From Eledone cirrhosa (Eukaryota): a stretch of DNA of 64,000 bases. This document shows positions 3,750 through 64,000 of the stretch, piece by piece. Position numbers and translations under genes: made by a program. Position 1 is the first letter of the stretch, and each line of letters starts with the position of its first letter. The notes beneath the pieces were generated by a model. It worked only from the letters and a program-made list of their open reading frames with translations. It did not search any database and had not been told where the DNA came from. Location: contig CAXHJY010000031.1 of the NCBI GenBank assembly GCA_964016885.1, positions 1-64,000 on the forward strand, in the 5' to 3' direction.

Positions 3750-3789
<40 letters not shown>

Positions 3790-3816
3790 TCAAAAGATGG
3801 TTAAATGAGTTCCATG

Positions 3817-4203: not shown

Positions 4204-4690
4204 GAGAGGGAGTTGATATGTATTGAGATTAAAAATTGAGATTAAAAAGTTTGAAGATAGAGAGAAAAAATAATAATTGCGGATGAATATTCTAACGTCA
4301 AAAAGGTGTATGTTTATAAGTATTATGGCAATTTCAAAATTAATGAAGAGAAAAAATTATTAAGGTTTGCGTGTTGAAGGATTTGAGAAAAATAATGTGA
4401 AATTAAAGTTTGTATATTGAAGGAATTGATAATATGTGCGAAGAAAGAGTTAATATGTATTAAAAAATTATTAAGGTTTGTGTATTAGATGATTTGAGAA
4501 AAATAATGTGAAGTTAAGGTTTGTATATTGAAGGAATTGATAATATGTGCGAAGAAAGAGTTAATATGTATTAAGAATGAATATTCTAGCGTCAAAAGAA
4601 GGAGAGGGAGTTAATGTATTGAGATTAAAAAGTTTGATGATGGAGAGAAAAAAATAATAATTGCGGATGAATATTCTAACGTCAAAAAAA
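4204..4690. repeat. Internal duplications in the Penelope-like UTR
   Basis: A ~111-bp tandem pair (4351-4462 and 4463-4573) nested between two copies of a ~90-100-bp block (4204-4305 and 4602-4690, GAGAGGGAGTT...GATGAATATTCTAACGTCAAAAA). Confidence 0.85.
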
Positions 4691-4868
4691 CAAATGTATA
4701 TGTTATGAAGGATTTTACAAGGTGGAGATAGAATGAGGGTAATGAGTAAACAAGTATTATAGAGTGTATAATGCCCTTTGAAGTAAGGTAGGAAGATGGG
4801 TATAATTTAAAGAGGTGTATGTATATGTGCCTTTGAGAAAAGATTTTAAATTGATAAAGAATTGAATA

Positions 4869-5141
4869 TTAGCTGTATACTTTGTGAAAAGTCCTATGGA
4901 ATTTATGCAGGCAGATAGAAAACAAATCTGTACGTCTATTTATTATAGAATCTAGATTAGAGATAATGGTAAATTTTTCATTTAGGCAGAGATTACAGAT
5001 TTTAGATAGAGAGCTGTTGAAGTATGAGGACGCAGAAGAAACCTTCTTCCAAAAGATGGTATATTTAATGTTTTTGTCTTTCAAGGACCATATGAGTTCT
5101 GAGAGAGCCGTGTTGGTTCTTTTAAGTTTGTATTTAAAAGA
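4869..5141 (-). pseudogene. C-terminal fragment of a Penelope-like GIY-YIG endonuclease
   Basis: SFKYKLKRTNTALSELIWSLKDKNIKYTIFWKKV...CNLCLNEK...INRRTDLFSICLH matches the pattern TxLSxxIWxLK...W...CxLCLxEK...NxRxE/D...CxH that I recognise from Penelope-like endonuclease C-termini. The ORF-track N-terminus (5186-5142) is only microsatellite. Confidence 0.75.
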
Positions 5142-5327
5142 TATATATATATATGTATATACATGTATGTATATGTAGCACAACAATTAAGGGGCCGTAT
5201 ATATATATCCAAAATTAAATTAAATTAAGGGTGTCATGTCAGAGAGACATGCGCCATATCCTCCAAGATTCCAATGAATAGATCCGAGCATCTTATATCA
5301 ACTACAAATTGATTGACATATACTGTA

Positions 5328-5663
5328 TAATTTAATTTAATTTAATTTAATTTAATTTAATTGAAATAAAATGAATTAAATTAAATTAAATTAAATTTGA
5401 TTAAATTAAATATAAATTAAATTAAATTATATATTTTTTTATTTTATTTATTTTTACTTTTTTATTAATTACTTTCATAATTAATTAATTATGTTAATTC
5501 ATTTTATTTCAATTTAATTTAATTTAATATAATTCATTTTATTTCAATTAAATTAGATTAAATTAAATTAAATTAAATTAAATTATATATTTTTTTATTT
5601 TATTTATTTTTACTTTTTTATTAATTACTTTCATAATTAATTAATTATGTTAATTCATTTTAT
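5328..5663. repeat. AT-only pentamer tracts (TTTAA)n/(TTAAA)n with internal inverted and direct duplications
   Basis: AATTGAAATAAAATGAATTAA (~5359) is the reverse complement of TTAATTCATTTTATTTCAATT (~5494); block ~5395-5510 is repeated at ~5552-5665. Confidence 0.85.
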
Positions 5664-5842
5664 TTCGGCTCGGCTCGGCTCGGCTCGGCTCGGCTCGGCT
5701 CGGCTCGAACCCGAACCCGAACCCGAACCTTACCTTACCTTACCTTACCTTACCTTACCTTACCTTACCTTACCTTACCTTACCTTACCTTACCTTACCT
5801 TACCTTACCTTACTTTACTTTACTTTACTTTACTTTACTTTT
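5664..5842. repeat. Compound microsatellite (TCGGC)n-(CGAACC)n-(CTTAC)n-(TTTAC)n
   Basis: Direct reading; four pure tracts abut with no spacer. Confidence 0.95.
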
Positions 5843-8800
5843 TTATTTAACTTAGTTATTTGACTTAGTTATTTGACTTAGTTATTTGACTTAGTTATTT
5901 GACTTAGTTATTTGACACATTTATTTAACACATTTATTTAACACATTTATTTAACACATTTATTTAACACATTTATTTAACACATTTATTTAACACATTT
6001 ATTTAACACATTTATTTAACACATTTATTTAACACATTTATTTAACACATTTATTTAACACATTTATTTAACACATTTATTTAACACATTTATTTAACAC
6101 ATTTATTTAACACATTTATTTAGCACATTTATTTAGCACATTTATTTAGCACATTTATTTAGCACATTTATTTAGCACATTTATTTAGCACATTTATTTA
6201 GCACATTTATTTAGCACATTTATTTGGCACATTTATTTGGCACATGTATTTGGCACATGTATTTGGCACATGTATTTGGCACATTTATTTGGCACATTTA
6301 TTTGGCACATTTATTTGGCACATTTATTTGGCACATTTATTTGGCACATTTATTTGGCACATTTATTTGGCACATTTATTTGGCACATTTATTTGGCACA
6401 TTTATTTGGCACATTTATTTGGCACATTTATTTGGCACATTTATTTGGCACATTTATTTGGCCCATTTATTTGGCCCATTTATTTGGCCCATTTATTTGG
6501 CCCATTTATTTGGCACATTTATTTGGCACATTTATTTGGCACATTTATTTGGCACATTTATTTGGCACATTTATTTGGCACATTTATTTGGCACATTTAT
6601 TTGGCACATTTATTTGGCACATTTATTTGGCCCATTTATTTGGCCCATTTATTTGGCCCATTTATTTGGCCCATTTATTTGGCCCATTTATTTGGCCCAT
6701 TTATTTGGCCCATTTATTTGGCCCATTTATTTGGCCCATTTATTTGGCCCATTTATTTGGCCCATTTATTTGGCCCATTTATTTGGCCCATTTATTTGGC
6801 CCATTTATTTGGCCCATTTATTTGGCCCATTTATTTGGCCCATTTATTTGGCCCATTTATTTAGCCCATTTATTTAGCCCATTTATTTAGCCCATTTATT
6901 TAGCCCATTTATTTAGCCCATTTATTTAGCCCATTTATTTAGCACATTTATTTAGCACATTTATTTAGCACTTTTATTTAACGCATTTATTTAACGCATT
7001 TATTTAGCGCATTTATTTAGCGCATTTATTTAGCGCATTTATTTAGCGCATTTATTTAACGCATTTATTTAGCGCATTTATTTAGCGCATTTATTTAACG
7101 CATTTATTTAACGCATTTATTTAACGCATTTATTTAACGCACTTATTTAACACACTTATTTAACATATTTATTTAACACATTTATTTAACGCACTTATTT
7201 AACGCATTTATTTAACACACTTATTTAACACACTTATTTAACACACTTATTTAACACACTTATTTAACACACCTATTTAACACACTTATTTAACACACTT
7301 ATTTAACACACTTATTTAACACATTTATTTAACACATTTATTTAGCGCATTTATTTAGCGCATTTATTTAGCGCATTTATTTAACGCATTTATTTAACGC
7401 ATTTATTTAACGCACTTATTTAACACACTTATTTAACACATTTATTTAACACATTTATTTAACGCACTTATTTAACTTATTTAACGCATTTATTTAACAC
7501 ATTTATTTAACACACTTATTAAACACACTTATTTAACACACTTATTTAACACACTTATTTAACACACTTATTTAACACACTTATTTAACACACTTATTTA
7601 ACACATTTATTTAACACATTTATTTAACACATTTATTTAACACATTTATTTAACACATTTATTTAACGCATTTATTTAACGCATTTATTTAACGCATTTA
7701 TTTAACGCATTTATTTAACGCATTTATTTAACGCACTTATTTAACTCACTTATTTAACGCATTTATTTAACGCATTTATTTAACGCACTTATTTAACGCA
7801 TTTATTTAACGCATTTATTTAACACACTTATTTAACGCATTTATTTAACACATTTATTTAACACACTTATTTAACACATTTATTTAACACATTTATTTAA
7901 CACACTTATTTAACACATTTATTTAACACATTTATTTAACACATTTATTTAACACATTTATTTAACACATTTATTTAACATTTATTTAACACATTTATTT
8001 AACACATTTATTTAACACATTTATTTAACACATTTATTTAACACATTTATTTAACACATATATTTAACACATTTATTTAACACATTTATTTAACACATTT
8101 ATTTAACACATTTATTTAACACATTTATTTAACACATTTATTTGGCACATTTATTTGGCACATTTATTTGGCACATTTATTTGGCACATTTATTTGGCAC
8201 ATGTATTTGGCACATGTATTTGGCACATTTATTTGGCACATTTATTTGGCACATTTATTTGGCACATTTATTTGGCACATTTATTTGGCACATTTATTTG
8301 GCACATTTGTTTGGCACATTTATTTGGCACATTTATTTGGCACATTTATTTGGCACATTTATTTGGCACATTTATTTGGCCCATTTATTTGGCCCATTTA
8401 TTTGGCCCATTTATTTGGCCCATTTATTTGGCCCATTTATTTGGCCCATTTATTTGGCCCATTTATTTGGCCCATTTATTTGGCCCATTTATTTGGCCCA
8501 TTTATTTGGCCCATTTATTTGGCCCATTTATTTGGCCCATTTATTTGGCCCATTTATTTGGCCCATTTATTTGGCCCATTTATTTGGCCCATTTATTTGG
8601 CCCATTTATTTGGCCCATTTATTTGGCCCATTTATTTAGCCCATTTATTTAGCCCATTTATTTAGCCCATTTATTTAGCACATTTATTTAGCACATTTAT
8701 TTAGCACATTTATTTAGCACATTTATTTAGCACATTTATTTAGCACATTTATTTAGCACATTTATTTAGCGCTTTTATTTAACGCATTTATTTAACGCAT

Positions 8801-11800
8801 TTATTTAGCGCATTTATTTAGCGCATTTATTTAGCGCATTTATTTAGCGCATTTATTTAACGCATTTATTTAGCGCATTTATTTAGCGCATTTATTTAAC
8901 GCATTTATTTAACGCATTTATTTAACGCATTTATTTAACGCACTTATTTAACACACTTATTTAACATATTTATTTAACACATTTATTTAACGCACTTATT
9001 TAACGCATTTATTTAACACACTTATTTAACACACTTATTTAACACACTTATTTAACACACTTATTTAACACACCTATTTAACACACTTATTTAACACACT
9101 TATTTAACACATTTATTTAACACATTTATTTAGCGCATTTATTTAGCGCATTTATTTAGCGCATTTATTTAACGCATTTATTTAACGCATTTATTTAACG
9201 CATTTATTTAACGCACTTATTTAACACACTTATTTAACACATTTATTTAACACATTTATTTAACGCACTTATTTAACTTATTTAACGCATTTATTTAACA
9301 CATTTATTTAACACACTTATTTAACACACTTATTTAACACACTTATTTAACACACTTATTTAACACACTTATTTAACACACTTATTTAACACACTTATTT
9401 AACACATTTATTTAACACATTTATTTAACACATTTATTTAACACATTTATTTAACACATTTATTTAACGCATTTATTTTACGCATTTATTTAACGCATTT
9501 ATTTAACGCATTTATTTAACGCATTTATTTAACGCACTTATTTAACTCACTTATTTAACGCATTTATTTAACGCATTTATTTAACGCACTTATTTAACGC
9601 ATTTATTTAACGCATTTATTTAACACACTTATTTAACGCATTTATTTAACACATTTATTTAACACACTTATTTAACACATTTATTTAACACATTTATTTA
9701 ACACACTTATTTAACACATTTATTTAACACATTTATTTAACACATTTATTTAACACATTTATTTAACATTTATTTAACACATTTATTTAACACATTTATT
9801 TAACACATTTATTTAACACATTTATTTAACACATTTATTTAACACATATATTTAACACATTTATTTAACACATTTATTTAACACATTTATTTAACACATT
9901 TATTTAACACATTTATTTAACACATTTATTTAGCACATTTATTTAGCACATTTATTTAACACATTTATTTAACACATTTATTTAGCACATTTATTTAGCA
10001 CATTTATTTAGCACATTTATTTAGCACATTTATTTAGCACATTTATTTAGCACATTTATTTAACACATTTATTTAACGCATTTATTTAACGCATTTATTT
10101 AACGCATTTATTTAACGCACTTATTTAACGCACTTATTTAACACACTTATTTAACACATTTATTTAACACATTTATTTAACACACTTATTTAACGCACTT
10201 ATTTAACACATTTATTTAACACACTTATTTAACACACTTATTTAACACATTTATTTAACACACTTATTTAACACACTTATTTAACACATTTATTTAACAC
10301 ATTTTTTAACACATTTATTTAACACATTTATTTAACGCATTTATTTAACACATTTATTTAACATTTATTTAACACATTTATCTAACACATTTATTTAACA
10401 CATTTATTTAGCACATTTATTTAACACATTTATTTAGCACATTTATTTAACGCATTTATTTAACGCATTTATTTAACGCACTTATTTAACACACTTATTT
10501 AACGCATTTATTTAACGCATTTATTTAACACACTTATTTAACGCATTTATTTAACACATTTATTTAACACACTTATTTAACGCATTTATTTAACACATTT
10601 ATTTAACACACTTATTTAACACATTTATTTAACACATTTATTTAACACATTTATTTAACACATTTATTTAACACATTTATTTAACATTTATTTAACACAT
10701 TTATCTAACACATTTATTTAACACATTTATTTAGCACATTTATTTAACACATTTATTTAGCACATTTATTTAGCACATTTATTTAACACATTTATTTAAC
10801 ACACTTATTTAACGCACTTATTTAACGCACTTATTTAACACATTTATTTAACACTTATTTAACACACTTATTTAACACATTTATTTAACACATTTATTTA
10901 ACACACTTATTTAAAACACTTATTTAACACATTTATTTAACACATTTATTTAACACATTTATTTAACACATTTATTTAACACATTTATTTAACACACTTA
11001 TTTAACACATTTATTTAACACATTTATTTAACACACTTATTTAAAACACTTATTTAACACATTTATTTAACACATTTATTTAACACATTTATTTAACACA
11101 TTTATTTAACACATTTATTTAACGCATTTATTTAACGCATTTATTTAACGCATTTATTTAACGCATTTATTTAACGCACTTATTTAACTCACTTATTTAA
11201 CGCATTTATTTAACGCATTTATTTAACACACTTATTTAACGCATTTATTTAACACATTTATTTAACACACATATTTAACGCATTTATTTAACACATTTAT
11301 TTAACAAACTTATTTAACACATTTATTTAACACACTTATTTAACACATTTATTTAACACATTTATTTAACACATTTATTTAACATTTATTTAACACATTT
11401 ATTTAACACATTTATTTAGCACATTTATTTAACACATTTATTTAACACATTTATTTAGCACATTTATTTAGCACATTTATTTAACACATTTATTTAACAC
11501 ATTTATTTAACACATTTATTTAACACATTTATTTAACACATTTATTTAACACATTTATTTAGCACATTTATTTAGCACATTTATTTAACACATTTATTTA
11601 ACACATTTATTTAGCACATTTATTTAACACATTTATTTAGCACATTTATTTAGCACATTTATTTAACGCATTTATTTAGCGCATTTATTTAACGCATTTA
11701 TTTAACGCATTTATTTAACGCATTTATTTAACGCACTTATTTAACGCACTTATTTAACGCACTTATTTAACACATTTATTTAACACATTTATTTAACACA

Positions 11801-14800
11801 CTTATTTAACGCACTTATTTAACACACTTATTTAACACACTTATTTAACACACTTATTTAACACATTTATTTAACACACTTATTTAAAACACTTATTTAA
11901 CACATTTATTTAACACATTTATTTAACACATTTATTTAACACATTTATATAACGCATTTATTTAACGCATTTATTTAACGCACTTATTTAACACACTTAT
12001 TTAACGCATTTATTTAACGCATTTATTTAACACACTTATTTAACGCATTTATTTAACACATTTATTTAACACACTTATTTAACACATTTATTTAACACAT
12101 TTATTTAACATTTATTTAACACATTTATTTAACACATTTATTTAACACATTTATTTGGCACATTTATTTGGCACATTTATTTGGCACATTTATTTGGCAC
12201 ATTTATTTGGCCCATTTATTTGGCCCATTTATTTGGCCCATTTATTTGGCCCATTTATTTGGCCCATTTATTTGGCCCATTTATTTGGCCCATTTATTTG
12301 GCCCATTTATTTGGCCCATTTATTTGGCCCATTTATTTGGCCCATTTATTTGGCCCATTTATTTGGCCCATTTATTTGGCCAATTTATTTGGCCCATTTA
12401 TTTGGCCCATTTATTTGGCCCATTTATTTGGCCCATTTATTTGGCCCATTTATTTGGCCCATTTATTTGGCCCATTTATTTAGCCCATTTATTTAGCCCA
12501 TTTATTTAGCCCATTTATTTAGCCCATTTATTTAGCACATTTATTTAGCAGATTTATTTAGCACATTTATTTAGCACATTTATTTAGCACATTTATTTAG
12601 CACATTTATTTAGCGCATTTATTTAGCGCTTTTATTTAACGCATTTATTTAACGCATTTATTTAGCGCATTTATTTAGCGCATTTATTTAGCGCATTTAT
12701 TTAGCGCATTTATTTAACGCATTTATTTAGCGCATTTATTTAGCGCATTTATTTAACGCATTTATTTAACGCATTTATTTAACGCATTTATTTAACGCAC
12801 TTATTCAACACACTTATTTAACATATTTATTTAACACATTTATTTAACGCACTTATTTAACGCATTTATTTAACACACTTATTTAACACACTTATTTAAC
12901 ACACTTATTTAACACACTTATTTAACACACCTATTTAACACACTTATTTAACACACTTATTTAACACATTTATTTAACACATTTATTTAGCGCATTTATT
13001 TAGCGCATTTATTTAGCGCATTTATTTAACGCATTTATTTAACGCATTTATTTAACGCATTTATTTAACGCACTTATTTAACACACTTATTTAACACATT
13101 TATTTAACACATTTATTTAACGCACTTATTTAACTTATTTAACGCATTTATTTAACACATTTATTTAACACACTTATTTAACACACTTATTTAACACACT
13201 TATTTAACACACTTATTTAACACACTTATTTAACACACTTATTTAACACACTTATTTAACACATTTATTTAACACATTTATTTAACACATTTATTTAACA
13301 CATTTATTTAACACATTTATTTAACGCATTTATTTAACGCATTTATTTAACGCATTTATTTAACGCATTTATTTAACGCACTTATTTAACTCACTTATTT
13401 AACGCATTTATTTAACGCATTTATTTAACGCACTTATTTAACGCATTTATTTAACGCATTTATTTAACACACTTATTTAACGCATTTATTTAACACATTT
13501 ATTTAACACACTTATTTAACACATTTATTTAACACATTTATTTAACACACTTATTTAACACATTTATTTAACACATTTATTTAACACATTTATTTAACAC
13601 ATTTATTTAACATTTATTTAACACATTTATTTAACACATTTATTTAACACATTTATTTAACACATTTATTTAACACATTTATTTAACACATATATTTAAC
13701 ACATTTATTTAACACATTTATTTAACACATTTATTTAACACATTTATTTAACACATTTATTTAACACATTTATTTAGCACATTTATTTAGCACATTTATT
13801 TAACACATTTATTTAACACATTTATTTAGCACATTTATTTAGCACATTTATTTAGCACATTTATTTAGCACATTTATTTAGCACATTTATTTAGCACATT
13901 TATTTAACACATTTATTTAACGCATTTATTTAACGCATTTATTTAACGCATTTATTTAACGCACTTATTTAACGCACTTATTTAACACACTTATTTAACA
14001 CATTTATTTAGCACATTTATTTAACACACTTATTTAACGCACTTATTTAACACATTTATTTAACACACTTATTTAACACACTTATTTAACACATTTATTT
14101 AACACACTTATTTAACACACTTATTTAACACATTTATTTAACACATTTTTTAACACATTTATTTAACACATTTATTTAACGCATTTATTTAACACATTTA
14201 TTTAACATTTATTTAACACATTTATCTAACACATTTATTTAACACATTTATTTAGCACATTTATTTAACACATTTATTTAGCACATTTATTTAACGCATT
14301 TATTTAACGCATTTATTTAACGCACTTATTTAACACACTTATTTAACGCATTTATTTAACGCATTTATTTAACACACTTATTTAACGCATTTATTTAACA
14401 CATTTATTTAACACACTTATTTAACGCATTTATTTAACACATTTATTTAACACACTTATTTAACACATTTATTTAACACATTTATTTAACACATTTATTT
14501 AACACATTTATTTAACACATTTATTTAACATTTATTTAACACATTTATCTAACACATTTATTTAACACATTTATTTAACGCACTTATTTAACGCATTTAT
14601 TTAACACACTTATTTAACACACTTATTTAACACACTTATTTAACACACTTATTTAACACACCTATTTAACACACTTATTTAACACACTTATTTAACACAC
14701 TTATTTAACACATTTATTTAACACATTTATTTAGCGCATTTATTTAGCGCATTTATTTAGCGCATTTATTTAACGCATTTATTTAACGCATTTATTTAAC

Positions 14801-17800
14801 GCATTTATTTAACGCACTTATTTAACACACTTATTTAACACATTTATTTAACACATTTATTTAACGCACTTATTTAACTTATTTAACGCATTTATTTAAC
14901 ACATTTATTTAACACACTTATTAAACACACTTATTTAACACACTTATTTAACACACTTATTTAACACACTTATTTAACACACTTATTTAACACACTTATT
15001 TAACACATTTATTTAACACATTTATTTAACACATTTATTTAACACATTTATTTAACACATTTATTTAACGCATTTATTTAACGCATTTATTTAACGCATT
15101 TATTTAACGCATTTATTTAACGCATTTATTTAACGCACTTATTTAACTCACTTATTTAACGCATTTATTTAACGCATTTATTTAACGCACTTATTTAACG
15201 CATTTATTTAACGCATTTATTTAACACACTTATTTAACGCATTTATTTAACACATTTATTTAACACACTTATTTAACACATTTATTTAACACATTTATTT
15301 AACACACTTATTTAACACATTTATTTAACACATTTATTTAACACATTTATTTAACACATTTATTTAACACATTTATTTAACATTTATTTAACACATTTAT
15401 TTAACACATTTATTTAACACATTTATTTAACACATTTATTTAACACATTTATTTAACACATATATTTAACACATTTATTTAACACATTTATTTAACACAT
15501 TTATTTAACACATTTATTTAACACATTTATTTAACACATTTATTTGGCACATTTATTTGGCACATTTATTTGGCACATTTATTTGGCACATGTATTTGGC
15601 ACATGTATTTGGCACATTTATTTGGCACATTTATTTGGCCCATTTATTTGGCCCATTTATTTGGCCCATTTATTTGGCCCATTTATTTGGCCCATTTATT
15701 TGGCCCATTTATTTGGCCCATTTATTTGGCCCATTTATTTGGCCCATTTATTTGGCCCATTTATTTGGCCCATTTATTTGGCCCATTTATTTGGCCCATT
15801 TATTTGGCCCATTTATTTGGCCCATTTATTTGGCCCATTTATTTGGCCCATTTATTTGGCCCATTTATTTAGCCCATTTATTTAGCCCATTTATTTAGCC
15901 CATTTATTTAGCACATTTATTTAGCACATTTATTTAGCACATTTATTTAGCACATTTATTTAGCACATTTATTTAGCACATTTATTTAGCGCTTTTATTT
16001 AACGCATTTATTTAACGCATTTATTTAGCGCACTTATTTAGCGCATTTATTTAGCGCATTTATTTAGCGCATTTATTTAACGCATTTATTTAGCGCATTT
16101 ATTTAGCGCATTTATTTAACGCATTTATTTAACGCATTTATTTAACGCATTTATTTAACGCACTTATTCAACACACTTATTTAACATATTTATTTAACAC
16201 ATTTATTTAACGCACTTATTTAACGCATTTATTTAACACACTTATTTAACACACTTATTTAACACACTTATTTAACACACTTATTTAACACACCTATTTA
16301 ACACACTTATTTAACACACTTATTTAACACATTTATTTAACACATTTATTTAGCGCATTTATTTAGCGCATTTATTTAGCGCATTTATTTAACGCATTTA
16401 TTTAACGCATTTATTTAACGCATTTATTTAACGCACTTATTTAACACACTTATTTAACACATTTATTTAACACATTTATTTAACGCACTTATTTAACTTA
16501 TTTAACGCATTTATTTAACACATTTATTTAACACACTTATTTAACACACTTATTTAACACACTTATTTAACACACTTATTTAACACACTTATTTAACACA
16601 CTTATTTAACACACTTATTTAACACATTTATTTAACACATTTATTTAACACATTTATTTAACACATTTATTTAACACATTTATTTAACGCATTTATTTAA
16701 CGCATTTATTTAACGCATTTATTTAACGCATTTATTTAACGCATTTATTTAACGCACTTATTTAACTCACTTATTTAACGCATTTATTTAACGCATTTAT
16801 TTAACGCACTTATTTAACGCATTTATTTAACGCATTTATTTAACACACTTATTTAACGCATTTATTTAACACATTTATTTAACACACTTATTTAACACAT
16901 TTATTTAACACATTTATTTAACACACTTATTTAACACATTTATTTAACACATTTATTTAACACATTTATTTAACACATTTATTTAACATTTATTTAACAC
17001 ATTTATTTAACACATTTATTTAACACATTTATTTAACACATTTATTTAACACATTTATTTAACACATATATTTAACACATTTATTTAACACATTTATTTA
17101 ACACATTTATTTAACACATTTATTTAACACATTTATTTAACACATTTATTTAGCACATTTATTTAGCACATTTATTTAACACATTTATTTAACACATTTA
17201 TTTAGCACATTTATTTAGCACATTTATTTAGCACATTTATTTAGCACATTTATTTAGCACATTTATTTAGCACATTTATTTAACACATTTATTTAACGCA
17301 TTTATTTAACGCATTTATTTAACGCATTTATTTAACGCACTTATTTAACGCACTTATTTAACACACTTATTTAACACATTTATTTAACACATTTATTTAA
17401 CACACTTATTTAACGCACTTATTTAACACATTTATTTAACACACTTATTTAACACACTTATTTAACACATTTATTTAACACACTTATTTAACACACTTAT
17501 TTAACACATTTATTTAACACATTTTTTAACACATTTATTTAACACATTTATTTAACGCATTTATTTAACACATTTATTTAACATTTATTTAACACATTTA
17601 TCTAACACATTTATTTAACACATTTATTTAGCACATTTATTTAACACATTTATTTAGCACATTTATTTAACGCATTTATTTAACGCATTTATTTAACGCA
17701 CTTATTTAACACACTTATTTAACGCATTTATTTAACGCATTTATTTAACACACTTATTTAACGCATTTATTTAACACATTTATTTAACACACTTATTTAA

Positions 17801-20800
17801 CGCATTTATTTAACACATTTATTTAACACACTTATTTAACACATTTATTTAACACATTTATTTAACACATTTATTTAACACATTTATTTAACACATTTAT
17901 TTAACATTTATTTAACACATTTATCTAACACATTTATTTAACACATTTATTTAGCACATTTATTTAACACATTTATTTAGCACATTTATTTAGCACATTT
18001 ATTTAACACATTTATTTAACACACTTATTTAACGCACTTATTTAACGCACTTATTTAACACATTTATTTAACACTTATTTAACACACTTATTTAACACAT
18101 TTATTTAACACATTTATTTAACACTTATTTAACACACTTATTTAACACATTTATTTAACACATTTATTTAACACACTTATTTAAAACACTTATTTAACAC
18201 ATTTATTTAACACATTTATTTAACACATTTATTTAACACATTTATTTAACACATTTATTTAACACACTTATTTAACACATTTATTTAACACATTTATTTA
18301 ACACACTTATTTAAAACACTTATTTAACACATTTATTTAACACATTTATTTAACACATTTATTTAACACATTTATTTAACACATTTATTTAACGCATTTA
18401 TTTAACGCATTTATTTAACGCATTTATTTAACGCACTTATTTAACTCACTTATTTAACGCATTTATTTAACGCATTTATTTAACACACTTATTTAACGCA
18501 TTTATTTAACACATTTATTTAACACACTTATTTAACGCATTTATTTAACACATTTATTTAACAAACTTATTTAACACATTTATTTAACACACTTATTTAA
18601 CACATTTATTTAACACATTTATTTAACACATTTATTTAACATTTATTTAACACATTTATTTAACACATTTATTTAGCACATTTATTTAACACATTTATTT
18701 AACACATTTATTTAGCACATTTATTTAGCACATTTATTTAACACATTTATTTAACACATTTATTTAACACATTTATTTAACACATTTATTTAACACATTT
18801 ATTTAACACATTTATTTAGCACATTTATTTAGCACATTTATTTAACACATTTATTTAACACATTTATTTAGCACATTTATTTAACACATTTATTTAGCAC
18901 ATTTATTTAGCACATTTATTTAACGCATTTATTTAGCGCATTTATTTAACGCATTTATTTAACGCATTTATTTAACGCATTTATTTAACGCACTTATTTA
19001 ACGCACTTATTTAACGCACTTATTTAACACATTTATTTAACACATTTATTTAACACACTTATTTAACGCACTTATTTAACACACTTATTTAACACACTTA
19101 TTTAACACACTTATTTAACACATTTATTTAACACACTTATTTAAAACACTTATTTAACACATTTATTTAACACATTTATTTAACACATTTATTTAACACA
19201 TTTATTTAACGCATTTATTTAACGCATTTATTTAACGCACTTATTTAACACACTTATTTAACGCATTTATTTAACGCATTTATTTAACACACTTATTTAA
19301 CGCATTTATTTAACACATTTATTTAACACACTTATTTAACACATTTATTTAACACATTTATTTAACATTTATTTAACACATTTATTTAACACATTTATTT
19401 AACACATTTATTTAGCACATTTATTTAACGCATTTATTTAGCACATTTATTTAACACATTTATTTAACACACTTATTTAACGCACTTATTTAACACATTT
19501 ATTTAACACACTTATTTAGCACATTTATTTAGTACATTTATTTAGCACATTTATTTAGCACATTTATTTAACACTTTTATTTAACACACTTATTTAACGC
19601 ATTTATTTAACACATTTATTTAACACACTTATTTAACACATTTATTTAACACATTTATTTAACATATTTATTTAACATTTATTTAACACATTTATTTAAC
19701 ACATTTATTTAACACATTTATTTAACACATTTATTTAACACATTTATTTAACACATTTATTTAACACATTTATTTAACACATTTATTTAGCACATTTATT
19801 TAGCACATTTATTTAGCACATTTATTTAGCACATTTATTTAGCACATTTATTTAACGCATTTATTTAACGCATTTATTTAACGCATTTATTTAACGCACT
19901 TATTTAACGCACTTATTTAACACACTTATTTAACACATTTATTTAACACATTTATTTAACACACTTATTTAACGCACTTATTTAACACATTTATTTAACA
20001 CACTTATTTAACACACTTATTTAACACATTTATTTAACACACTTATTTAACACACTTATTTAACACATTTATTTAACACATTTTTTTAACACATTTATTT
20101 AACACATTTATTTAACGCATTTATTTAACGCATTTATTTTAAGCATTTATTTAACACACTTATTTAACGCATTTATTTAACACATTTATTTAACACACTT
20201 ATTTAACGCATTTATTTAACACATTTATTTAACACACTTATTTAACACATTTATTTAACACATTTATTTAACACATTTATTTAACACATTTATTTAACAC
20301 ATTTATTTAACTCATTTATCTAACACATTTATTTAACACATTTATTTAGCACATTTATTTAACACATTTATTTAGCACATTTATTTAGCACATTTATTTA
20401 ACACATTTATTTAACACACTTATTTAACGCACTTATTTAACACATTTATTTAACACACTTATTTAACACACTTATTTAACACATTTATTTAACACACTTA
20501 TTTAACACACTTATTTAACACATTTATTTAACACATTTTTTTAACACATTTATTTAACACATTTATTTAACGCATTTATTTAACGCATTTATTTAACGCA
20601 TTTATTTAACGCTCTTATTTAACACACTTATTTAACGCATTTATTTTAAGCATTTATTTAACACACTTATTTAACGCATTTATTTAACACATTTATTTAA
20701 CACACTTATTTAACGCATTTATTTAACACATTTATTTAACACACTTATTTAACACATTTATTTAACACATTTATTTAACACATTTATTTAACACATTTAT

Positions 20801-23800
20801 TTAACACATTTATTTAACATTTATTTAACACATTTATCTAACACATTTATTTAACACATTTATTTAGCACATTTATTTAACACATTTATTTAGCACATTT
20901 ATTTAGCACATTTATTTAACACATTTATTTAACACACTTATTTAACGCACTTATTTAACACATTTATTTAACACTTATTTAACACTTATTTAACACATTT
21001 ATTTAACACATTTATTTAACACACTTATTTAAAACTTATTTAACACATTTATTTAACACATTTATATAACACATTTATTTAACACATTTATTTAGCACAT
21101 TTATTTAGCACATTTATTTAGCACATTTATTTAGCACATTTATTTAGCACATTTATTTAGTACATTTATTTAGCACATTTATTTAGCACATTTATTTAAC
21201 ACTTTTATTTAGCGCATTTATTTAACGCATTTATTTAGCGCATTTATTTAGCGCATTTATTTAGCGCATTTATTTAACGCATTTATTTAACGCATTTATT
21301 TAACGCACTTATTTAACACACTTATTTAACACATTTATTTAACACATTTATTTAACGCATTTATTTAGCGCATTTATTTAACGCATTTATTTAACGCATT
21401 TATTTAACGCACTTATTTAACACACTTATTTAACACATTTATTTAACACATTTATTTAACGCACTTATTTAACGCACTTATTTAACGCATTTATTTAACA
21501 CACTTATTTAACACACTTATTTAACACACTTATTTAACACACTTATTTAACACACTTATTTAACGCATTTATTTAACGCATTTATTTAACGCCTTTATTT
21601 AACGCATTTATTTAACGCATTTATTTAACACACTTATTTAACGCATTTATTTAACACATTTATTTAACACACTTATTTAACACATTTATTTAACACATTT
21701 ATTTAACACATTTATTTAACATTTATTTAACACATTTATTTAACACATTTATTTAACACATTTATTTAACACATTTATTTAACACATTTATTTAACACAT
21801 TTATTTAGCACATTTATTTAGCACATTTATTTAACACATTTATTTAACACATTTATTTAGCACATTTATTTAGCACATTTATTTAGCACATTTATTTAGC
21901 ACATTTATTTAGCACATTTATTTAACGCATTTATTTAACGCATTTATTTAACGCATTTATTTAACGCATTTATTTAACGCACTTATTTAACACACTTATT
22001 TAACACATTTATTTAACACATTTATTTAACACACTTATTTAACGCACTTATTTAACACATTTATTTAACACACTTATTTAACGCATTTATTTAACACATT
22101 TATTTAACACACTTATTTAACACATTTATTTAACACATTTATTTAACATTTTTTTAACACATTTATCTAACACATTTATTTAACACATTTATTTAGCACA
22201 TTTATTTAACACATTTATTTAGCACATTTATTTAACACACTTATTTAACACACTTATTTAACACATTTATTTAACACACTTATTTAACACACTTATTTAA
22301 CACATTTATTTAACACATTTTTTTAACACATTTATTTAACACATTTATTTAACGCATTTATTTAACGCATTTATTTAACGCATTTATTTAACGCTCTTAT
22401 TTAACACACTTATTTAACGCATTTATTTTAAGCATTTATTTAACACACTTATTTAACGCATTTATTTAACACATTTATTTAACACACTTATTTAACGCAT
22501 TTATTTAACACATTTATTTAACGCATTTATTTAACGCATTTATTTAACGCATTTATTTAACGCACTTATTTAACTCACTTATTTAACGCATTTATTTAAC
22601 GCACTTATTTAACGCATTTATTTAACACATTTATTTAACACACTTATTTAACGCATTTATTTAACACATTTATTTAACAAACTTATTTAACACACTTATT
22701 TAACGCACTTATTTAACGCATTTATTTAACACATTTATTTAACAAACTTATTTAACACATTTATTTAACACACTTATTTAACACATTTATTTAACACATT
22801 TATTTAACACATTTATTTAACATTTATTTAACACATTTATTTAACACATTTATTTAGCACATTTATTTAACACATTTATTTAACACATTTATTTAGCACA
22901 TTTATTTAGCACATTTATTTAACACATTTATTTAACACATTTATTTAACACATTTATTTAACACATTTATTTAACACATTTATTTAACACATTTATTTAG
23001 CACATTTATTTAGCACATTTATTTAACACATTTATTTAACACATTTATTTAGCACATTTATTTAACACATTTATTTAGCACATTTATTTAGCACATTTAT
23101 TTAACGCATTTATTTAGCGCATTTATTTAGCGCATTTATTTAACGCATTTATTTAACGCATTTATTTAACGCATTTATTTAACGCACTTATTTAACGCAC
23201 TTATTTAACGCACTTATTTAACACATTTATTTAACACATTTATTTAACACACTTATTTAACGCACTTATTTAACACACTTATTTAACACACTTATTTAAC
23301 ACACTTATTTAACACATTTATTTAACACACTTATTTAAAACACTTATTTAACACATTTATTTAACACATTTATTTAACACATTTATTTAACACATTTATT
23401 TAACGCATTTATTTAACGCATTTATTTAACGCACTTATTTAACACACTTATTTAACGCATTTATTTAACGCATTTATTTAACACACTTATTTAACGCATT
23501 TATTTAACACATTTATTTAACACACTTATTTAACACATTTATTTAACACATTTATTTAACATTTATTTAACACATTTATTTAACACATTTATTTAACACA
23601 TTTATTTAGCACATTTATTTAACGCATTTATTTAGCACATTTATTTAACACATTTATTTAACACACTTATTTAACGCACTTATTTAATACATTTATTTAA
23701 CACACTTATTTAGCACATTTATTTAGTACATTTATTTAGCACATTTATTTAGCACATTTATTTAACACTTTTATTTAACACATTTATTTAACGCATTTAT

Positions 23801-26800
23801 TTAGCGCATTTATTTAGCGCATTTATTTAGCGCATTTATTTAGCGCATTTATTTAACGCATTTATTTAGCGCATTTATTTAGCGCATTTATTTAGCGCAT
23901 TTATTTAACGCATTTATTTAACGCATTTATTTAACGCACTTATTTAACACACTTATTTAACACATTTATTTAACACATTTATTTAACGCACTTATTTAAC
24001 GCACTTATTTAACGCACTTATTTAACGCATTTATTTAACACACTTATTTAACACACTTATTTAACACACTTATTTAACACACTTATTTAACACACTTATT
24101 TAACACACTTATTTAACACACTTATTTAACACACTTATTTAACGCATTTATTTGACACATTTATTTAACACACTTATTTAACACATTTATTTAACACATT
24201 TATTTAACACATTTATTTAACATTTATTTAACACATTTATTTAACACATTTATTTAACACATTTATTTAACACATTTATTTAACACATTTATTTAACACA
24301 TTTATTTAACACATTTATTTAACACATTTATTTAGCACATTTATTTAGCACATTTATTTAGCACATTTATTTAGCACATTTATTTAGCACATTTATTTAA
24401 CGCATTTATTTAACGCATTTATTTAACGCATTTATTTAACGCATTTATTTAACGCATTTATTTAACGCACTTATTTAACACACTTATTTAACACATTTAT
24501 TTAACACATTTATTTAACACACTTATTTAACGCACTTATTTAACACATTTATTTAACACACTTATTTAACACACTTATTTAACACATTTATTTAACACAC
24601 TTATTTAACACACTTATTTAACACATTTATTTAACACATTTTTTTAACACATTTATTTAACACATTTATTTAACGCATTTATTTAACGCATTTATTTTAA
24701 GCATTTATTTAACACACTTATTTAACGCATTTATTTAACACATTTATTTAACACACTTATTTAACGCATTTATTTAACACATTTATTTAACACACTTATT
24801 TAACACATTTATTTAACACATTTATTTAACACATTTATTTAACACATTTATTTAACACATTTATTTAACACATTTATCTAACACATTTATTTAACACATT
24901 TATTTAGCACATTTATTTAACACATTTATTTAGCACATTTATTTAGCACATTTATTTAACACATTTATTTAACACACTTATTTAACGCACTTATTTAACA
25001 CATTTATTTAACACACTTATTTAACACACTTATTTAACACATTTATTTAACACACTTATTTAACACACTTATTTAACACATTTATTTAACACATTTTTTA
25101 ACACATTTATTTAACACATTTATTTAACGCATTTATTTAACGCATTTATTTAACGCATTTATTTAACGCTCTTATTTAACACACTTATTTAACGCATTTA
25201 TTTTAAGCATTTATTTAACACACTTATTTAACGCATTTATTTAACACATTTATTTAACACACTTATTTAACGCATTTATTTAACACATTTATTTAACACA
25301 CTTATTTAACACATTTATTTAACACATTTATTTAACACATTTATTTAACACATTTATTTAACACATTTATTTAACATTTATTTAACACATTTATCTAACA
25401 TATTCATTTAACACATTTATTTAGCACATTTATTTAACACATTTATTTAGCACATTTATTTAGCACATTTATTTAACACATTTATTTAACACACTTATTT
25501 AACGCACTTATTTAACACATTTATTTAACACTTATTTAACACTTATTTAACACATTTATTTAACACATTTATTTAACACACTTATTTAAAACTTATTTAA
25601 CACATTTATTTAACACATTTATATAACACATTTATTTAACACATTTATTTAGCACATTTATTTAGCACATTTATTTAGCACATTTATTTAGTACATTTAT
25701 TTAGCACATTTATTTAGCACATTTATTTAACACTTTTATTTAGCGCATTTATTTAACGCATTTATTTAGCGCATTTATTTAGCGCATTTATTTAGCGCAT
25801 TTATTTAACGCATTTATTTAACGCATTTATTTAACGCACTTATTTAACACACTTATTTAACACATTTATTTAACACATTTATTTAACGCACTTATTTAAC
25901 GCACTTATTTAACGCATTTATTTAACACACTTATTTAACACACTTATTTAACACACTTATTTAACACACTTATTTAACACACTTATTTAACACATTTATT
26001 TAACACATTTATTTAACACATTTATTTAACGCATTTATTTAACGCATTTATTTAACGCATTTATTTAACGCACTTATTTAACTCACTTATTTAACGCATT
26101 TATTTAACGCATTTATTTAACGCCTTTATTTAACGCATTTATTTAACGCATTTATTTAACACACTTATTTAACGCATTTATTTAACACACTTATTTAACA
26201 CATTTATTTAACACATTTATTTAACATTTATTTAACACATTTATTTAACACATTTATTTAACACATTTATTTAACACATTTATTTAGCACATTTATTTAG
26301 CACATTTATTTAACACATTTATTTAGCACATTTATTTAGCACATTTATTTAGCACATTTATTTAGCACATTTATTTAACGCATTTATTTAACGCATTTAT
26401 TTAACGCATTTATTTAACGCATTTATTTAACGCATTTATTTAACGCACTTATTTAACACTTATTTAACACATTTATTTAACACATTTATTTAACACACTT
26501 ATTTAACGCACTTATTTAACACATTTATTTAACACACTTATTTAACACATTTATTTAACACATTTATTTAGCACATTTATTTAACACATTTATTTAGCAC
26601 ATTTATTTAGCACATTTATTTAACACATTTATTTAACGCATTTATTTAACGCATTTATTTAACGCACTTATTTAACTCACTTATTTAACGCATTTATTTA
26701 ACGCACTTATTTAACGCATTTATTTAACACATTTATTTAACACACTTATTTAACGCATTTATTTAACACATTTATTTAACACACTTATTTAACACATTTA

Positions 26801-44570: not shown

Positions 44571-45508
44571 TTTTACTTACTTTACTTTACTTATTTTACT
44601 TACTTATTTACTTAACTTACTTAACTTACTTATTTACTTAATTTACTTTGTAATTTTTGAATGAAATTTGGATATATTGTATTGAATTTTTAACTGAATT
44701 GGTTAGAACTTAAATGAATTGAATTGTATTGAATTGAGTTGAAATTCACTGCACTTCACTTGGATTCGATTGAATTGGGATTAACTTTCACTTCACTTCA
44801 CTTCACCTCACTTGGATTCGATTGAATTGAAATTAATTGAATTGAAAAGAATTGAATTGAATTGGAATTCACTTCACTTAACTTGCATTGATTGGATTGA
44901 ATTGAATTGAATTGAATTGAATTGAAATTCACTTCACTTAATTTGGATTGGATTCGATTGAATTGAATTGAATTGAATTGTATTGAATTGGAATTCACTT
45001 CACTTCACTTCACTTGGATTGGATTCGATAAAATTGAATTGAATTAAATTGGAATTCACTTCAGTTCACTTCACTTCACTTCACTTCACTTCACTTAACT
45101 TGGATTGAATTGAATTGGATTGAATTGAATTGAAAAGAATTGAATTGAATTGGAATTCACTTCACTTAACTTGCATTGATTGGATTGAATTGAATTGAAT
45201 AGAATTGAATTGAATTGAATTGCAATTCACTTTACTTCACTTCACTTCATTACACTTCACTTTACTTCACTTGGATTGGATTCGATTAAATTGAATTGAA
45301 TTGGATTGAATTGAATTGAATTGAATTGAATTGAATTGAATTGAATTGAATTCTATTAAATTGAAATTCACTACATTTCATTCCACTTCAGTTGGATTCG
45401 ATTGAATAGAATTGAATTGAATTGAATTGAATTGAATCGAATTGAATTGAATTGATTTAAATTGAATTGGAATTCACTTCACCTCCCTTCACTTCACCTC
45501 ACTTCACT
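44571..45508. repeat. Hinge microsatellites: (TTAC/TTTAC)n, then alternating (TTGAA)n and (TTCAC)n blocks
   Basis: Direct reading; blocks are repeatedly joined by GGAATTCAC or GAAATTCAC and by TTGGATT(CGA) junctions. Confidence 0.93.
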
Positions 45509-46943
45509 GAATACTGAGTGGTGAATACTGATCTACAACAGGTTTATTAGGTTTTTCGAAAAATAATGATATTGTGTTGAAAAATTAATTTCTCAACGAG
45601 TGGTGATGCGAAATATTATTTTTCGAAATACGGTCTAAAAAGATCGATTTATGAATGACACGAGGAAAATTTGTAAAAAGATCAATTTATGAACGCTTGT
45701 TTGAATCGATTTTCGAAAAACATAAAAGAATAAAATTTTGAAAAAAAAATATTTTAGAAATAATATTTTAGAAAAAGTAATATTTTAGAGAATACGTTTA
45801 TTTTAGAAAAAATAGTTTATTCTCAATCAATTTTCGAAAAACCTAAAAAAATAAAATTTTAAAAATCAGAAGTAAATATTTCGAAAGGTATAAAAAAATT
45901 GATTATTGTACGTTTTTAAAAAGTAATTCCTTACATAAGTTCTAAAATATTCTTCAAAATTTGAAATCAGAAAGTAAAAATTAAGAATTGCATTTATATA
46001 CGAACGTAAAAGAGTCAAAATAAAAATTAAATTTTATTATAACTTTCGAATCAAAATTTAATCTTTTTAGGTTAAGTCCTAAAAGTATGACTATCCTGAT
46101 TGATTTTGAAATATCAATCTGTGAAAGTATTCCGTACAAATAAACGTAAAGAATTCATTTTTGGACATTTTGGTTTTACAAGGTAAAAATTTTCATTCGA
46201 AATATTTACTTTCTTATTACAAATTTTGAAGAGTAAACATTTACATTCTCGAAATCTCTACTTTGGTATTTACAAATTAAAGGTAATTTGAAATCATTTA
46301 CAAAATACAGTAATATGCGTTTTTAAAGTTGCAATTGTCGAAATATTAGCTATCAATAGAATTAATATGGATGAATATACATTAAAGATTAATATTTAGT
46401 TCTAGTATTTTTGAAAATGTATGAGTTTTGTATCTTTCTAATATAGTTTTTCGCAAACAATGTTCCTTACATTTAAAAATTCATATTTTTACACCTTTCG
46501 AAATACTTAAATAAATTTTCAAATTGATTTTAAAAAAATTTACTTTTAGTTTTGCGTTTTCAAATGAAACCTGCCTTCTTTTACAAATATCTTTTACATT
46601 TTTCGAAATCTTTACTTTTAAATCATTTTTGGATTTTGAAGTCAATTTGAAATATAATTTTATTTCGTCAAAAATTAATTCTTTTAGATTTATCTAAACA
46701 GAATCTATATTAGTTCACAAATTGATGATTTTACACAGTATTTCTAAAGATATTACTTTAAGATGGATTTTCTTTATGTAAATATAAATATAAATCCATC
46801 TTGACAGATAGATAGTAGAAACATAAACGCATAAACGCATTTTTTCCAAATACCGTGAAAGATGATCAATTTGTGAAAAACCTAAAAAAATCAATTTTAT
46901 AAGTCAGAAGTAGATAAAAAAGTATAAAAAAATTGATTATTTT
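45509..46943. other. AT-rich non-coding spacer at the satellite inversion point, built from degenerate direct and inverted repeats rich in TCGAA
   Basis: No ORF in the track; about 11 TCGAA motifs; direct repeat 45837-45907 / 46876-46940; inverted repeats 45548-45562 / 45831-45845 and 46713-46744 / 46848-46878. Confidence 0.8.
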
Positions 46944-61900: not shown

Positions 61901-64000
61901 TTAAATAAAATAAATGTGTTAAATAAATGTGTTAAATAAATGTGTTAAATAAATGTGTTAAATAAATGTGTTAAATAAATGTGTTAAATAAATGTGTTAA
62001 ATAAATGTGTTAAATAAATGTGTTAAATAAATGTGTTAAATAAAAGTGTTAAATAAAAGTGTTAAATAAATGTGTTAAATAAATGTGTTAAATAAATGTG
62101 TTAAATAAATGTGTTAAATAAATGTGTTAAATAAATGTGTTAAATAAATGTGTTAAATAAAAGTGTTAAATAAAAGTGTTAAATAAAAGTGTTAAATAAA
62201 AGTGTTAAATAAATGTGTTAAATAAATGTGTTAAATAAATGTGTTAAATAAATGTGTTAAATAAATGTGTTAAATAAATGTGTTAAATAAATGTGTTAAA
62301 TAAATGTGTTAAATAAATGTGTTAAATAAATGTGTTAAATAAATGTGTTAAATAAATGTGTTAAATAAATGTGTTAAATAAATGTGTTAAATAAATGTGT
62401 TAAATAAAAGTGTTAAATAAAAGTGTTAAATAAAAGTGTTAAATAAAAGTGTTAAATAAATGTGTTAAATAAATGTGTTAAATAAATATGGTAAATAAAT
62501 GTGGTAAATAAATAAATGTGTTAAATAAATGTGTTAAATAAATGTGTTAAATAAATGTGTTAAATAAATGTGTTAAATAAATGTGTTAAATAAATGTGTT
62601 AAATAAAAGTGTTAAATAAATGTGTGTGTTAAATAAATGTGTTAAATAAATGTGTTAAATAAAAGTGTTAAATAAATGTGTTAAATAAAAGTGTTAAATA
62701 AATGTGTTAAATAAATGTGTTAAATAAAAGTGTTAAATAAATGTGTTAAATAAATGTGTTAAATAAAAGTGTTAAATAAAAGTGTTAAATAAATGTGTTA
62801 AATAAATGTGTTAAATAAAAGTGTTAAATAAAAGTGTTAAATAAAAGTGTTAAATAAAAGTGTTAAATAAAAGTGTTAAATAAAAGTGTTAAATAAAAGT
62901 GTTAAATAAAAGTGTTAAATAAAAGTGTTAAATAAATGTGTTAAATAAATGTGTTAAATAAATGTGTTAAATAAATGTGTTAAATAAATGTGTTAAATAA
63001 ATGTGTTAAATAAATGTGTTAAATAAATGTGTTAAATAAATGTGTTAAATAAATGTGTTAAATAAATGTGTTAAATAAATGTGTTAAACAAAAGTGTTAA
63101 ACAAAAGTGTTAAACAAAAGTGTTAAACAAATGTGTTAAATAAATGTGTTAAATAAATGTGTTAAATAAAAGTGTTAAATAAATGTGTTAAATAAATGTG
63201 TTAAATAAATGTGTTAAATAAAAGTGTTAAATAAATGTGTTAAATAAATGTGTTAAATAAATGTGTTAAATAAATGTGTTAAATAAAAGTGTTAAATAAA
63301 AGTGTTAAATAAAAGTGTTAAATAAAAGTGTTAAATAAATGTGTTAAATAAATGTGTTAAATAAATGTGTTAAATAAATGTGTTAAATAAATGTGTTAAA
63401 TAAATGTGTTAAATAAATGTGTTAAATAAATTTGGTAAATAAATGTGTTAAATAAATGTGGTAAATAAATGTGGTAAATAAATAAATGTGTTAAATAAAT
63501 GTGTTAAATAAATGTGTTAAATAAATGTGTGTGTTAAATAAATGTGTTAAATAAATGTGTTAAATAAAAGTGTTAAATAAAAGTGTTAAATAAAAGTGTT
63601 AAATAAAAGTGTTAAATAAAAGTGTTAAATAAAAGTGTTAAATAAAAGTGTTAAATAAAAGTGTTAAATAAAAGTGTTAAATAAATGTGTTAAATAAATG
63701 TGTTAAATAAAAGTGTTAAATAAAAGTGTTAAATAAAAGTGTTAAATAAAAGTGTTAAATAAAAGTGTTAATTAAATGTGTTAATTAAATGTGTTAAATA
63801 AATGTGTTAAATAAATGTGTTAAATAAAAGTGTTAAATAAAAGTGTTAAATAAAAGTGTTAAATAAAAGTGTTAAATAAAAGTGTTAAATAAATGTGTTA
63901 ATTAAATGTGTTAAATAAATGTGTTAAATAAATGTGTTAAATAAATGTGTTAAATAAATGTGTTAAATAAATGTGTTAAATAAATGTGTTAAATAAAATA
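46944..64000 (-). repeat. 13-bp satellite array, right arm in inverted orientation (TAAATAAATGTGT on +), roughly 1300 monomers, runs off the window end
   Basis: Exact reverse complement of the left-arm consensus. Variants TTGAATAAATGTG, TTAAACAAAAGTG, TTAAATAAAAGTG and GTGGTAAA. Confidence 0.98.

What the first reader, a model, noticed from the sequence alone, without database searches (positions are those of the whole stretch)
5843..64000. Giant inverted satellite pair (>55 kb) around a 2.4-kb non-satellite hinge
Seen: one 13-mer runs on + for ~38.7 kb, switches strand across 44571-46943, and continues on - for >17 kb. The switch is not a simple break, because a complex spacer with its own repeated motif sits at the centre. 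Known: foldback-type transposons such as Drosophila FB have inverted arms made of tandem repeats, and fission-yeast centromeres have an AT-rich core between inverted repeats. Inference: this may be a hugely expanded foldback-like element seeding a satellite, or a centromere/heterochromatin-organising locus. Read-through transcription would yield long dsRNA.
Basis: partly seen in the sequence, partly recalled or inferred. Interest (0 to 1): 0.75.

Follow-up and report, generated by a model that had tools for sequence, protein, structure and literature searches.

The report
Inverted satellite around candidate centromeric relic
Near one chromosome end, two long arrays of the same 13-letter repeat face each other across a short, decayed piece of another repeat family that is likely centromere-associated; the flip is likely an old rearrangement of a common kind rather than a jumping gene.

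Summary
The strand switch is real. The window opens a gap-free 261-kb contig ending in (TTAGGG)n. The 13-mer runs 38.7 kb on + and 77.8 kb on −. It is not a foldback element: the arms carry different variant sets, are not mirror images, and have no symmetric outer ends or target duplication. The hinge is itself repeat-derived: about 0.9 kb of compound pentamers, then a 1.43-kb core, 72% of which aligns to an AT-rich, quasi-palindromic TTCGAA satellite family. That family forms one cluster on each of the 11 large contigs where it was found, five of them within 49–56% of contig length, so it is likely centromere-associated (untested). Such blocks sit inside simple satellites elsewhere, with inverted flanks in 3 of 7 cases, and strand switches are frequent in other arrays here. 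Best reading: an old inversion at a decayed satellite island, after which each arm expanded independently. A side finding is more striking. The left flank is a 97–99% identical duplicate on two other contigs, where the same microsatellite seed steps into different giant satellites. Earlier scan notes did not describe this locus or family.

The parts
1..5330 (+). Left flank: LINE fragments (RT, PHD finger), dispersed repeats and TA microsatellites; part of a segmental duplication also found on C16 and C15
   Evidence: Pfam RVT_1 above cut-off at 522-866; PHD match just below cut-off. 98.6% over 5,330 nt on C16; 97-98% on C15
5328..5666 (.). (TAATT)n seed region with a 156-bp duplication; also present in the C15 and C16 duplicates
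5665..5842 (+). Stepwise microsatellite walk (TCGGC)8 (CGAACC)4 (TTACC)16 (TTACT)6 leading into the array
   Evidence: the paralogs walk differently
5843..5916 (+). Five copies of a related 13-mer (TTATTTGACTTAG), a possible precursor unit
   Evidence: the step to the main unit needs 3 changes, so origin in place is inferred, not shown
5908..44567 (+). Left arm: about 2,990 copies of the 13-mer, 34% consensus, with its own variants (…AACGCAT, …AGCACAT, …GGCCCAT)
13309..44567 (+). Perfect 15,634-bp tandem duplication inside the left arm (0 mismatches in 15,625 nt): a very recent unequal exchange or an assembler loop
44559..44648 (+). TTACT / TTACTTAAC transition, like the pentamers at the arm's outer edge
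44650..45510 (.). Compound minisatellite of alternating (ATTGA)n and (TTCAC)n runs; hairpin-prone
   Evidence: DNA fold z = -7.7 against 20 shuffles; related (ATTGA)n array of about 40 kb on C21
45510..46943 (.). Core: decayed mosaic member of the AT-rich TTCGAA satellite family (277-bp unit on C7 and C10, 91-bp unit on C1, C2 and C4), with family pieces in both orientations
   Evidence: 1,034 of 1,434 nt covered; best pieces 87-89% over 106-130 nt. No start-independent frame over 70 aa; no Rfam hit near a gathering score
46945..64000 (-). Right arm (continues to contig 124,745): about 5,935 copies, 60% consensus, with its own variants (…AACACTT, TTGTTT…, TTATTC…); joined abruptly to the core

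Best explanation
Two 13-mer satellite arrays point towards each other across a decayed island of an AT-rich, quasi-palindromic repeat family near a chromosome end, and they likely result from one old inversion followed by independent growth of each arm. Shown: the opposite strands, the separate variant sets, the repeat origin of the hinge, the telomere array 124 kb beyond the right arm, and frequent strand switches in other satellites of this genome. Inferred: a short run of 13-mers was turned round or copied across the island by recombination or template switching between its oppositely oriented sub-repeats. Each arm then expanded by unit-to-unit slippage and larger unequal exchanges (15.6-kb and about 35-kb periods) until no hinge-side symmetry remained. 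The island's family is likely centromere-associated, but this 1.4-kb copy is likely a relic and the pair likely has no function as a unit.
For: The arms share no exact 260-mer. Mirrored monomer identity is 0.185 against 0.203 for shuffles. Variants at 15.6%, 10.3% and 5.9% in the left arm are at 0-0.03% in the right; the right arm's 23% variant is at 0.27% in the left. The core is 72% covered by the family against at most 10% for shuffles, with TTCGAA at 6.3/kb against 10-21/kb in intact arrays. C7 arrays match their own reverse complement at 66-81%, and the core holds the family motif in both orientations. Strand switches occur elsewhere: 7 in the sampled parts of a 176-kb C8 domain, a 0.83-kb inversion on C15 and one in the C1 array. 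Family islands sit inside simple satellites, with inverted flanks on C58, C18 and C8 and direct flanks on C4, C13, C21 and C916. Neighbouring monomers are identical in 47.5% of pairs against 19% shuffled (left arm). Inversions in satellite arrays are documented in human T2T centromeres (10.1101/2021.07.12.452052, passages).
Against: No contig or read bridges the right junction. The middle of the core (about 45960-46570) is absent from the contigs of the three best-holding runs, although reads from three other samples cover parts of it at depth 1-3. The left junction is supported only indirectly. The order of events and the exact mechanism cannot be read from today's sequence. The right junction shows only 1-2 nt of microhomology. 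Centromere association rests on position and composition only, from searches that scored 8-40 of 23-630 candidates.
Confidence: 0.7

Rival explanations
1. The core is the active, minimal centromere of a telocentric or acrocentric chromosome, and the inverted arms are its pericentromeric heterochromatin.
For: The core belongs to a family found once per large contig, five of them at 49-56% of length and C1 at 57% (with lengths). It is 78% AT and dyad-symmetric. The telomere array lies 202 kb from the core. The inverted-flank layout recurs on C18. Drosophila centromeres form on complex islands within satellite (PMC6516634, abstract).
Against: The core is 1.4 kb and decayed, whereas clusters elsewhere are homogenised and span tens to hundreds of kb. 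Inverted flanks are 3 of 7, as chance would give. The arms are not mirror repeats, and no tRNA genes were found.
Confidence: 0.1
2. A single hairpin-primed fold-back duplication made the inverted pair, with the hinge as the unpaired spacer, and later turnover erased the symmetry.
For: The hinge pentamer block folds strongly (z = -7.7). An inverted duplication around a single-copy spacer is the expected product (recalled knowledge).
Against: The hinge-side parts of the two arms share no diagnostic variants. The two junctions differ: graded pentamers on the left, an abrupt join on the right.
Confidence: 0.1
3. Assembly artefact: two separate arrays misjoined, or the left arm inflated.
For: A perfect 15.6-kb duplication. 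A left-arm-type fragment begins a contig at a scaffold gap on C27. No bridging piece for the right junction, and no core middle in runs X1-X3.
Against: The contig has no gaps and the hinge is only 2.4 kb. The arms have distinct variant sets. In three runs of one sample, a contig extends exactly 111 nt left of 44650, which would carry it about 30 nt into the arm if collinear (letters not shown). Core sequence occurs in reads of other samples.
Confidence: 0.07
4. A hugely expanded foldback (Tetris- or FB-like) transposon, or a two-armed Penelope-type insertion.
For: Inverted tandem arms around a non-coding middle resemble Tetris (PMC4079207, passages). AI notes report two-armed hammerhead insertions in this genome (unchecked).
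Against: No inverted outer domain, no credible TSD, a single copy, and no hammerhead hit in the hinge. The left flank and seed exist in paralogs that lack the rest.
Confidence: 0.03

Closest known systems
Strand switches (inversions) within satellite arrays, as in human T2T-CHM13 (10.1101/2021.07.12.452052; passages on 'inversion' read)
   Same: An orientation switch inside a homogeneous satellite domain, with other repeat families interleaved; the paper reports a 1.7-Mb inversion in the chr1 active array and over 200 breakpoints in HSat3 and beta satellite.
   Different: Here there is one switch, at an island of a second family, in a locus-specific subtelomeric 13-mer; the arms have fully diverged variant sets.
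Drosophila centromeric islands of complex DNA within satellite (PMC6516634; abstract and outline only)
   Same: A more complex island, shared in type across chromosomes, flanked by large simple-satellite arrays.
   Different: The Drosophila islands are retroelement-rich and CENP-A-validated; this one is a 1.4-kb decayed AT-rich satellite with no chromatin data.
Foldback transposon Tetris of Drosophila virilis (PMC4079207; 12 passages read)
   Same: Inverted arms of tandem repeats around a non-coding middle; proposed to seed a satellite.
   Different: Tetris has outer and inner TIR domains, 8-10 bp TSDs and several copies; none of these is present here.
Fission-yeast central domain, cnt flanked by imr (PMC6538654; 10 passages read)
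   Same: A central core between inverted elements unique to the locus.
   Different: There the imr are inverted repeats with tRNA gene clusters and CENP-A shown; here the arms are unequal (38.7 vs 77.8 kb), non-mirror simple satellite with no tRNA genes.

Membership tests
Foldback transposon (Tetris/FB type) | Inverted tandem-repeat arms around a non-coding middle | tested here: met
Foldback transposon (Tetris/FB type) | Matching inverted outer (flanking) domains | tested here: not met
   BLAST of 4000-5950 against 124,601-135,000 finds only 13-mer and AT/TA low-complexity matches
Foldback transposon (Tetris/FB type) | 8-10 bp target-site duplication | tested here: not met
   14 boundary pairs with +/-6 nt offsets. 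The best is a 9-nt low-complexity match (5665/126218), 4 nt inside a flank repeat whose paralog at 131,695 has the same letters
Foldback transposon (Tetris/FB type) | Further copies of the element in the genome | tested here: not met
   Junction unique with up to 1 mismatch; no other full-length core match among the candidates scored
Foldback transposon (Tetris/FB type) | Arms are mirror copies | tested here: not met
Fission-yeast-type centromere | Core flanked by locus-specific inverted repeats | tested here: inconclusive
   Inverted and nearly locus-specific but not mirror copies
Fission-yeast-type centromere | tRNA gene clusters at the boundaries | tested here: not met
   ARAGORN found 0 genes in the window and 0 in contig 114,001-144,000
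Any active centromere | CENP-A chromatin on the core | not testable with these tools
   needs CUT&Tag, ChIP or DiMeLo-seq
Centromere-associated satellite family (TTCGAA family) | One cluster per chromosome | tested here: inconclusive
   One region on each of 11 large contigs seen (C1, C2, C4, C6, C7, C8, C10, C13, C18, C21, C25); searches scored only 8-40 candidates each, and the other large contigs were not shown either way
Satellite array with internal strand switch | Same consensus on opposite strands in one contiguous locus, without transposon ends | tested here: met
Satellite array with internal strand switch | Confirmed by spanning long reads | tested here: inconclusive
   No listed piece spans the hinge

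The most novel reading that the evidence does not exclude
The TTCGAA family is the centromere DNA of this (probably octopod) genome, and the C58 hinge is a minimal, still CENP-A-bound core of a telocentric chromosome end, set between inverted satellite arms like a fission-yeast central domain; the much larger C18 cluster repeats the layout.
Probability: 0.1. Interest if true: 0.8.

Novelty: new member of a known kind. Interest (0 to 1): 0.4.

Why it matters
The inversion itself is ordinary. Its value lies in what the hinge leads to. First, it gives a concrete candidate for centromere-associated DNA in a genome that looks octopod (my recall of the repeat content plus unchecked scan notes; one search gave no organism names). 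Four literature searches and keyword passages of two octopod papers showed no sequence description of octopod centromeres, so a CENP-A experiment now has named targets on 11 contigs. Second, three 97-99% identical copies of one seed lead into three unrelated giant satellites, a natural replicate for studying how satellites are born.

Tried and rejected
Outer-end symmetry and TSD: none credible. Coding or structured RNA in the hinge: six stop-to-stop frames of 55-70 aa, low complexity; three Rfam miRNA hits at 24-27 bits against gathering scores of 80-90. tRNA boundaries: none. An idea that telomerase-like addition built both arms outward: it fits C58 and C8, but C6 and C18 have G-rich strands pointing inward, and C4, C13, C21 and C916 have direct flanks. 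An idea that the right arm sits between a core and 16-mer pair as on C2: the C2 junction is a different sequence. Origin of the 13-mer from the 277-bp unit (a 10 of 13 match seen by eye): not distinguishable from chance, not pursued. Inverted arms at the C15 and C16 paralogs: none; those arrays end in a 44-mer satellite and in unrelated non-satellite sequence. The C21 match to the pentamer block is a plain (ATTGA)n array, not a hinge copy. Organism name: not obtained (Atlas unavailable). Scan notes by sequence and by nearby place returned nothing. Supplements of the cited papers were not read.

Full report
Observation. The 13-mer TTATTTAACACAT runs on + from 5908 to 44567 and on − from 46945. 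The window is the first 64 kb of contig G000:C58. The contig is 261,000 bases with no N. The right arm ends at 124,745 and is followed by a 1.5-kb 16-mer array, retroelement-rich tandem duplications and about 12 kb of (TTAGGG)n at 248,689-260,824. The pair is therefore subtelomeric and unequal: 38.7 kb against 77.8 kb. The satellite is almost locus-specific. Of 1,941 exact four-unit matches in the genome, 1,929 are on C58, 5 are on C27 and 7 were not located.

The arms are not mirror images. Of 54 left and 120 right monomer types, 14 are shared. The arms share no exact 260-mer, and monomers paired outward from the hinge match in 18.5% of cases against 20.3% after shuffling. Each arm has its own higher-order history. 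The left arm holds a perfect 15,634-bp tandem duplication, and the right arm a roughly 35.3-kb period with differences. Neighbouring units are alike far above chance: in the left arm 47.5% are identical against 19% shuffled, and 75.5% of differing neighbours differ by one base against 47%. This is what unit-to-unit slippage plus larger unequal exchange would give (inference).

The hinge is repeat-derived. Its left part is TTACT pentamers followed by alternating (ATTGA)n and (TTCAC)n runs that fold better than all 20 shuffles (z = −7.7). Its right part, 45510-46943, aligns over 1,034 of 1,434 bases to an AT-rich TTCGAA satellite family, against 0-144 bases for 20 shuffles. The nearest relatives are 277-bp arrays on C7 and C10 (87-89% over about 120 nt) and a small island on C8. 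Motif density is about half that of intact arrays, so this copy is decayed. The family is quasi-palindromic: a C7 dimer matches its own reverse complement at 66-81%. The core joins the right arm abruptly, and that junction occurs once in the genome.

Where the family lies. It was found in one region on each of 11 large contigs, given here as a share of contig length: C1 57%, C2 50%, C4 55%, C6 49%, C7 31-32%, C8 51%, C10 68%, C13 56%, C18 29-30%, C21 99%, C25 68%. It is also on unplaced C916 (lengths). This is the pattern expected of centromere-associated DNA. One octopus preprint infers metacentric large chromosomes from recombination maps (PMC13174406, one passage). The inference is limited. 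Each search scored only 8-40 of 23-630 candidates, the other large contigs are untested, and no chromatin data were available.

Is inversion around the island special? Seven family blocks had simple-satellite flanks seen on both sides. Three are inverted: C58; C18, with the same 32-mer on opposite strands around about 220 kb; and C8, with telomere-type arms. Four are direct: C4, C13, C21 and C916. C7 and C10 were left out because one or both flanks are not simple satellite; C1, C2, C6 and C25 were left out because both flanks were not resolved. Strand switches also occur without any spacer. There are 7 switches in the sampled parts of the C8 domain, one of them with a gap of about 16 nt, and a clean 0.83-kb inversion on C15. 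One switch in 119 kb is thus unremarkable in this genome, as in human satellites (10.1101/2021.07.12.452052, passages).

Foldback test. Tetris-type elements have inverted outer domains, 8-10 bp TSDs and several copies (PMC4079207, passages). The outer ends here do not match. The best direct repeat among 14 boundary pairs is a 9-nt AT-rich match that belongs to a flank repeat also present at 131,695. The left flank and its microsatellite seed exist on C15 and C16 without the 13-mer. It is not a member of this family.

Assembly check. Three runs of one sample hold 25-30% of the hinge words. Each has a contig over 44650-44778 that extends exactly 111 nt further left, which fits crossing the left junction, but those letters were not shown. 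These runs show no depth over most of 45960-46570, which the tool says may be a filter effect. Reads from three other samples cover parts of that stretch at depth 1-3. Nothing bridges the right junction. The best holder may be the source sample and is not independent. A left-arm-type fragment starts a contig at a gap on C27, so more 13-mer array is probably unassembled. I put the risk of a misjoin at about 7%; the perfect 15.6-kb duplication is more doubtful than the switch itself.

Mechanism. Most likely (0.7), a short run of 13-mers was inverted or copied across the decayed, dyad-symmetric island, and the two arms then grew separately. The rivals are an active minimal centromere (0.1), a single fold-back duplication with total later turnover (0.1), an artefact (0.07) and a transposon (0.03). 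The opposite strands, divergence of the arms, family membership of the core and telomeric position are shown. The inversion mechanism, its age and any centromere role are inferred.

Side finding at the left edge. Bases 1-5330 are duplicated at 98.6% on C16 and 97-98% on C15. Only these 3 of the 30 listed copies of the upstream dispersed repeat carry the (TAATT)n seed. Downstream, each copy passes through short runs of successively changed units. On C58 the order is TCGGC, CGAACC, TTACC, TTACT, then the 13-mer. On C15 it is CGGCT, CGAAC, AACGG, AACGA, AAGCC, TAAGC, then a 25-mer array of about 118 kb. On C16 it is TCGAG, TCGGG, TCGGC x170, CCGGC, CCGCA, then, with an abrupt step, a 24-kb 17-mer array. 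The C15 walk is continuous into its satellite; on C58 the last step needs three changes. One search found no paper describing such a replicate set, which is weak evidence of absence.

Verdict. A real but ordinary strand switch, and a new member of a known kind. Interest is 0.4 because the hinge exposes a testable candidate centromeric family and the flank exposes replicate satellite births. The organism is probably an octopod; this rests on recall and on unchecked scan notes, not on a named database hit.

Noticed in passing
window 5328-5916; L146/L161 (C16:418.8-444.8 kb); L147/L166 (C15:43.099-43.217 Mb): Three 97-99% identical copies of one segment carry the same microsatellite seed, and each steps through different short repeats into a different giant satellite (13-mer, 17-mer, 25-mer).
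   Followed up: partly
L255, L256 (C18:12.843-13.080 Mb): About 220 kb of the TTCGAA family is flanked by the same 32-mer satellite on opposite strands: a larger second case of the window's layout.
   Followed up: partly
L072/L106 (C8:31,025,670-31,027,010): A 1.3-kb family island has 150-bp, 88% inverted ends, with CCCTAA-type repeats on the left and 6.4 kb of degenerate TTAGGG on the right, mid-chromosome; C6 and C7 clusters also abut interstitial telomere-like arrays.
   Followed up: partly
window 13309-44567: Perfect 15,634-bp tandem duplication (0 mismatches): a very recent event or an assembler loop.
   Followed up: partly
L092/L093 (C27:17,687,900-17,688,244): A fragment with the left arm's variant order starts a contig right after a scaffold gap, suggesting a second, unassembled 13-mer array or another allele.
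   Followed up: partly
L037 (C58:124,746-126,218); L135 (C2:209.2 Mb): The 16-mer closing the right arm is abundant (28,524 exact three-unit matches) and forms part of a 520-bp composite satellite directly beside the family cluster on C2.
   Followed up: partly
L037-L045 (C58:133-211 kb): Subtelomeric tandem duplications of 10.07 kb (about 4 copies) and 3.36 kb (about 9 copies), over 99% identical, built from retroelement fragments.
   Followed up: no
L098 (C8:31,033,700-31,036,000): A composite repeat of about 1.5 kb with 27-bp units containing GCGCATGCGC, alternating with (TTAAA)n.
   Followed up: no
window 1189-2343: A LINE-derived 384-aa frame with a PHD-like finger; 30 unnamed relatives at E <= 1e-60, most carrying RT and PHD domains.
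   Followed up: partly
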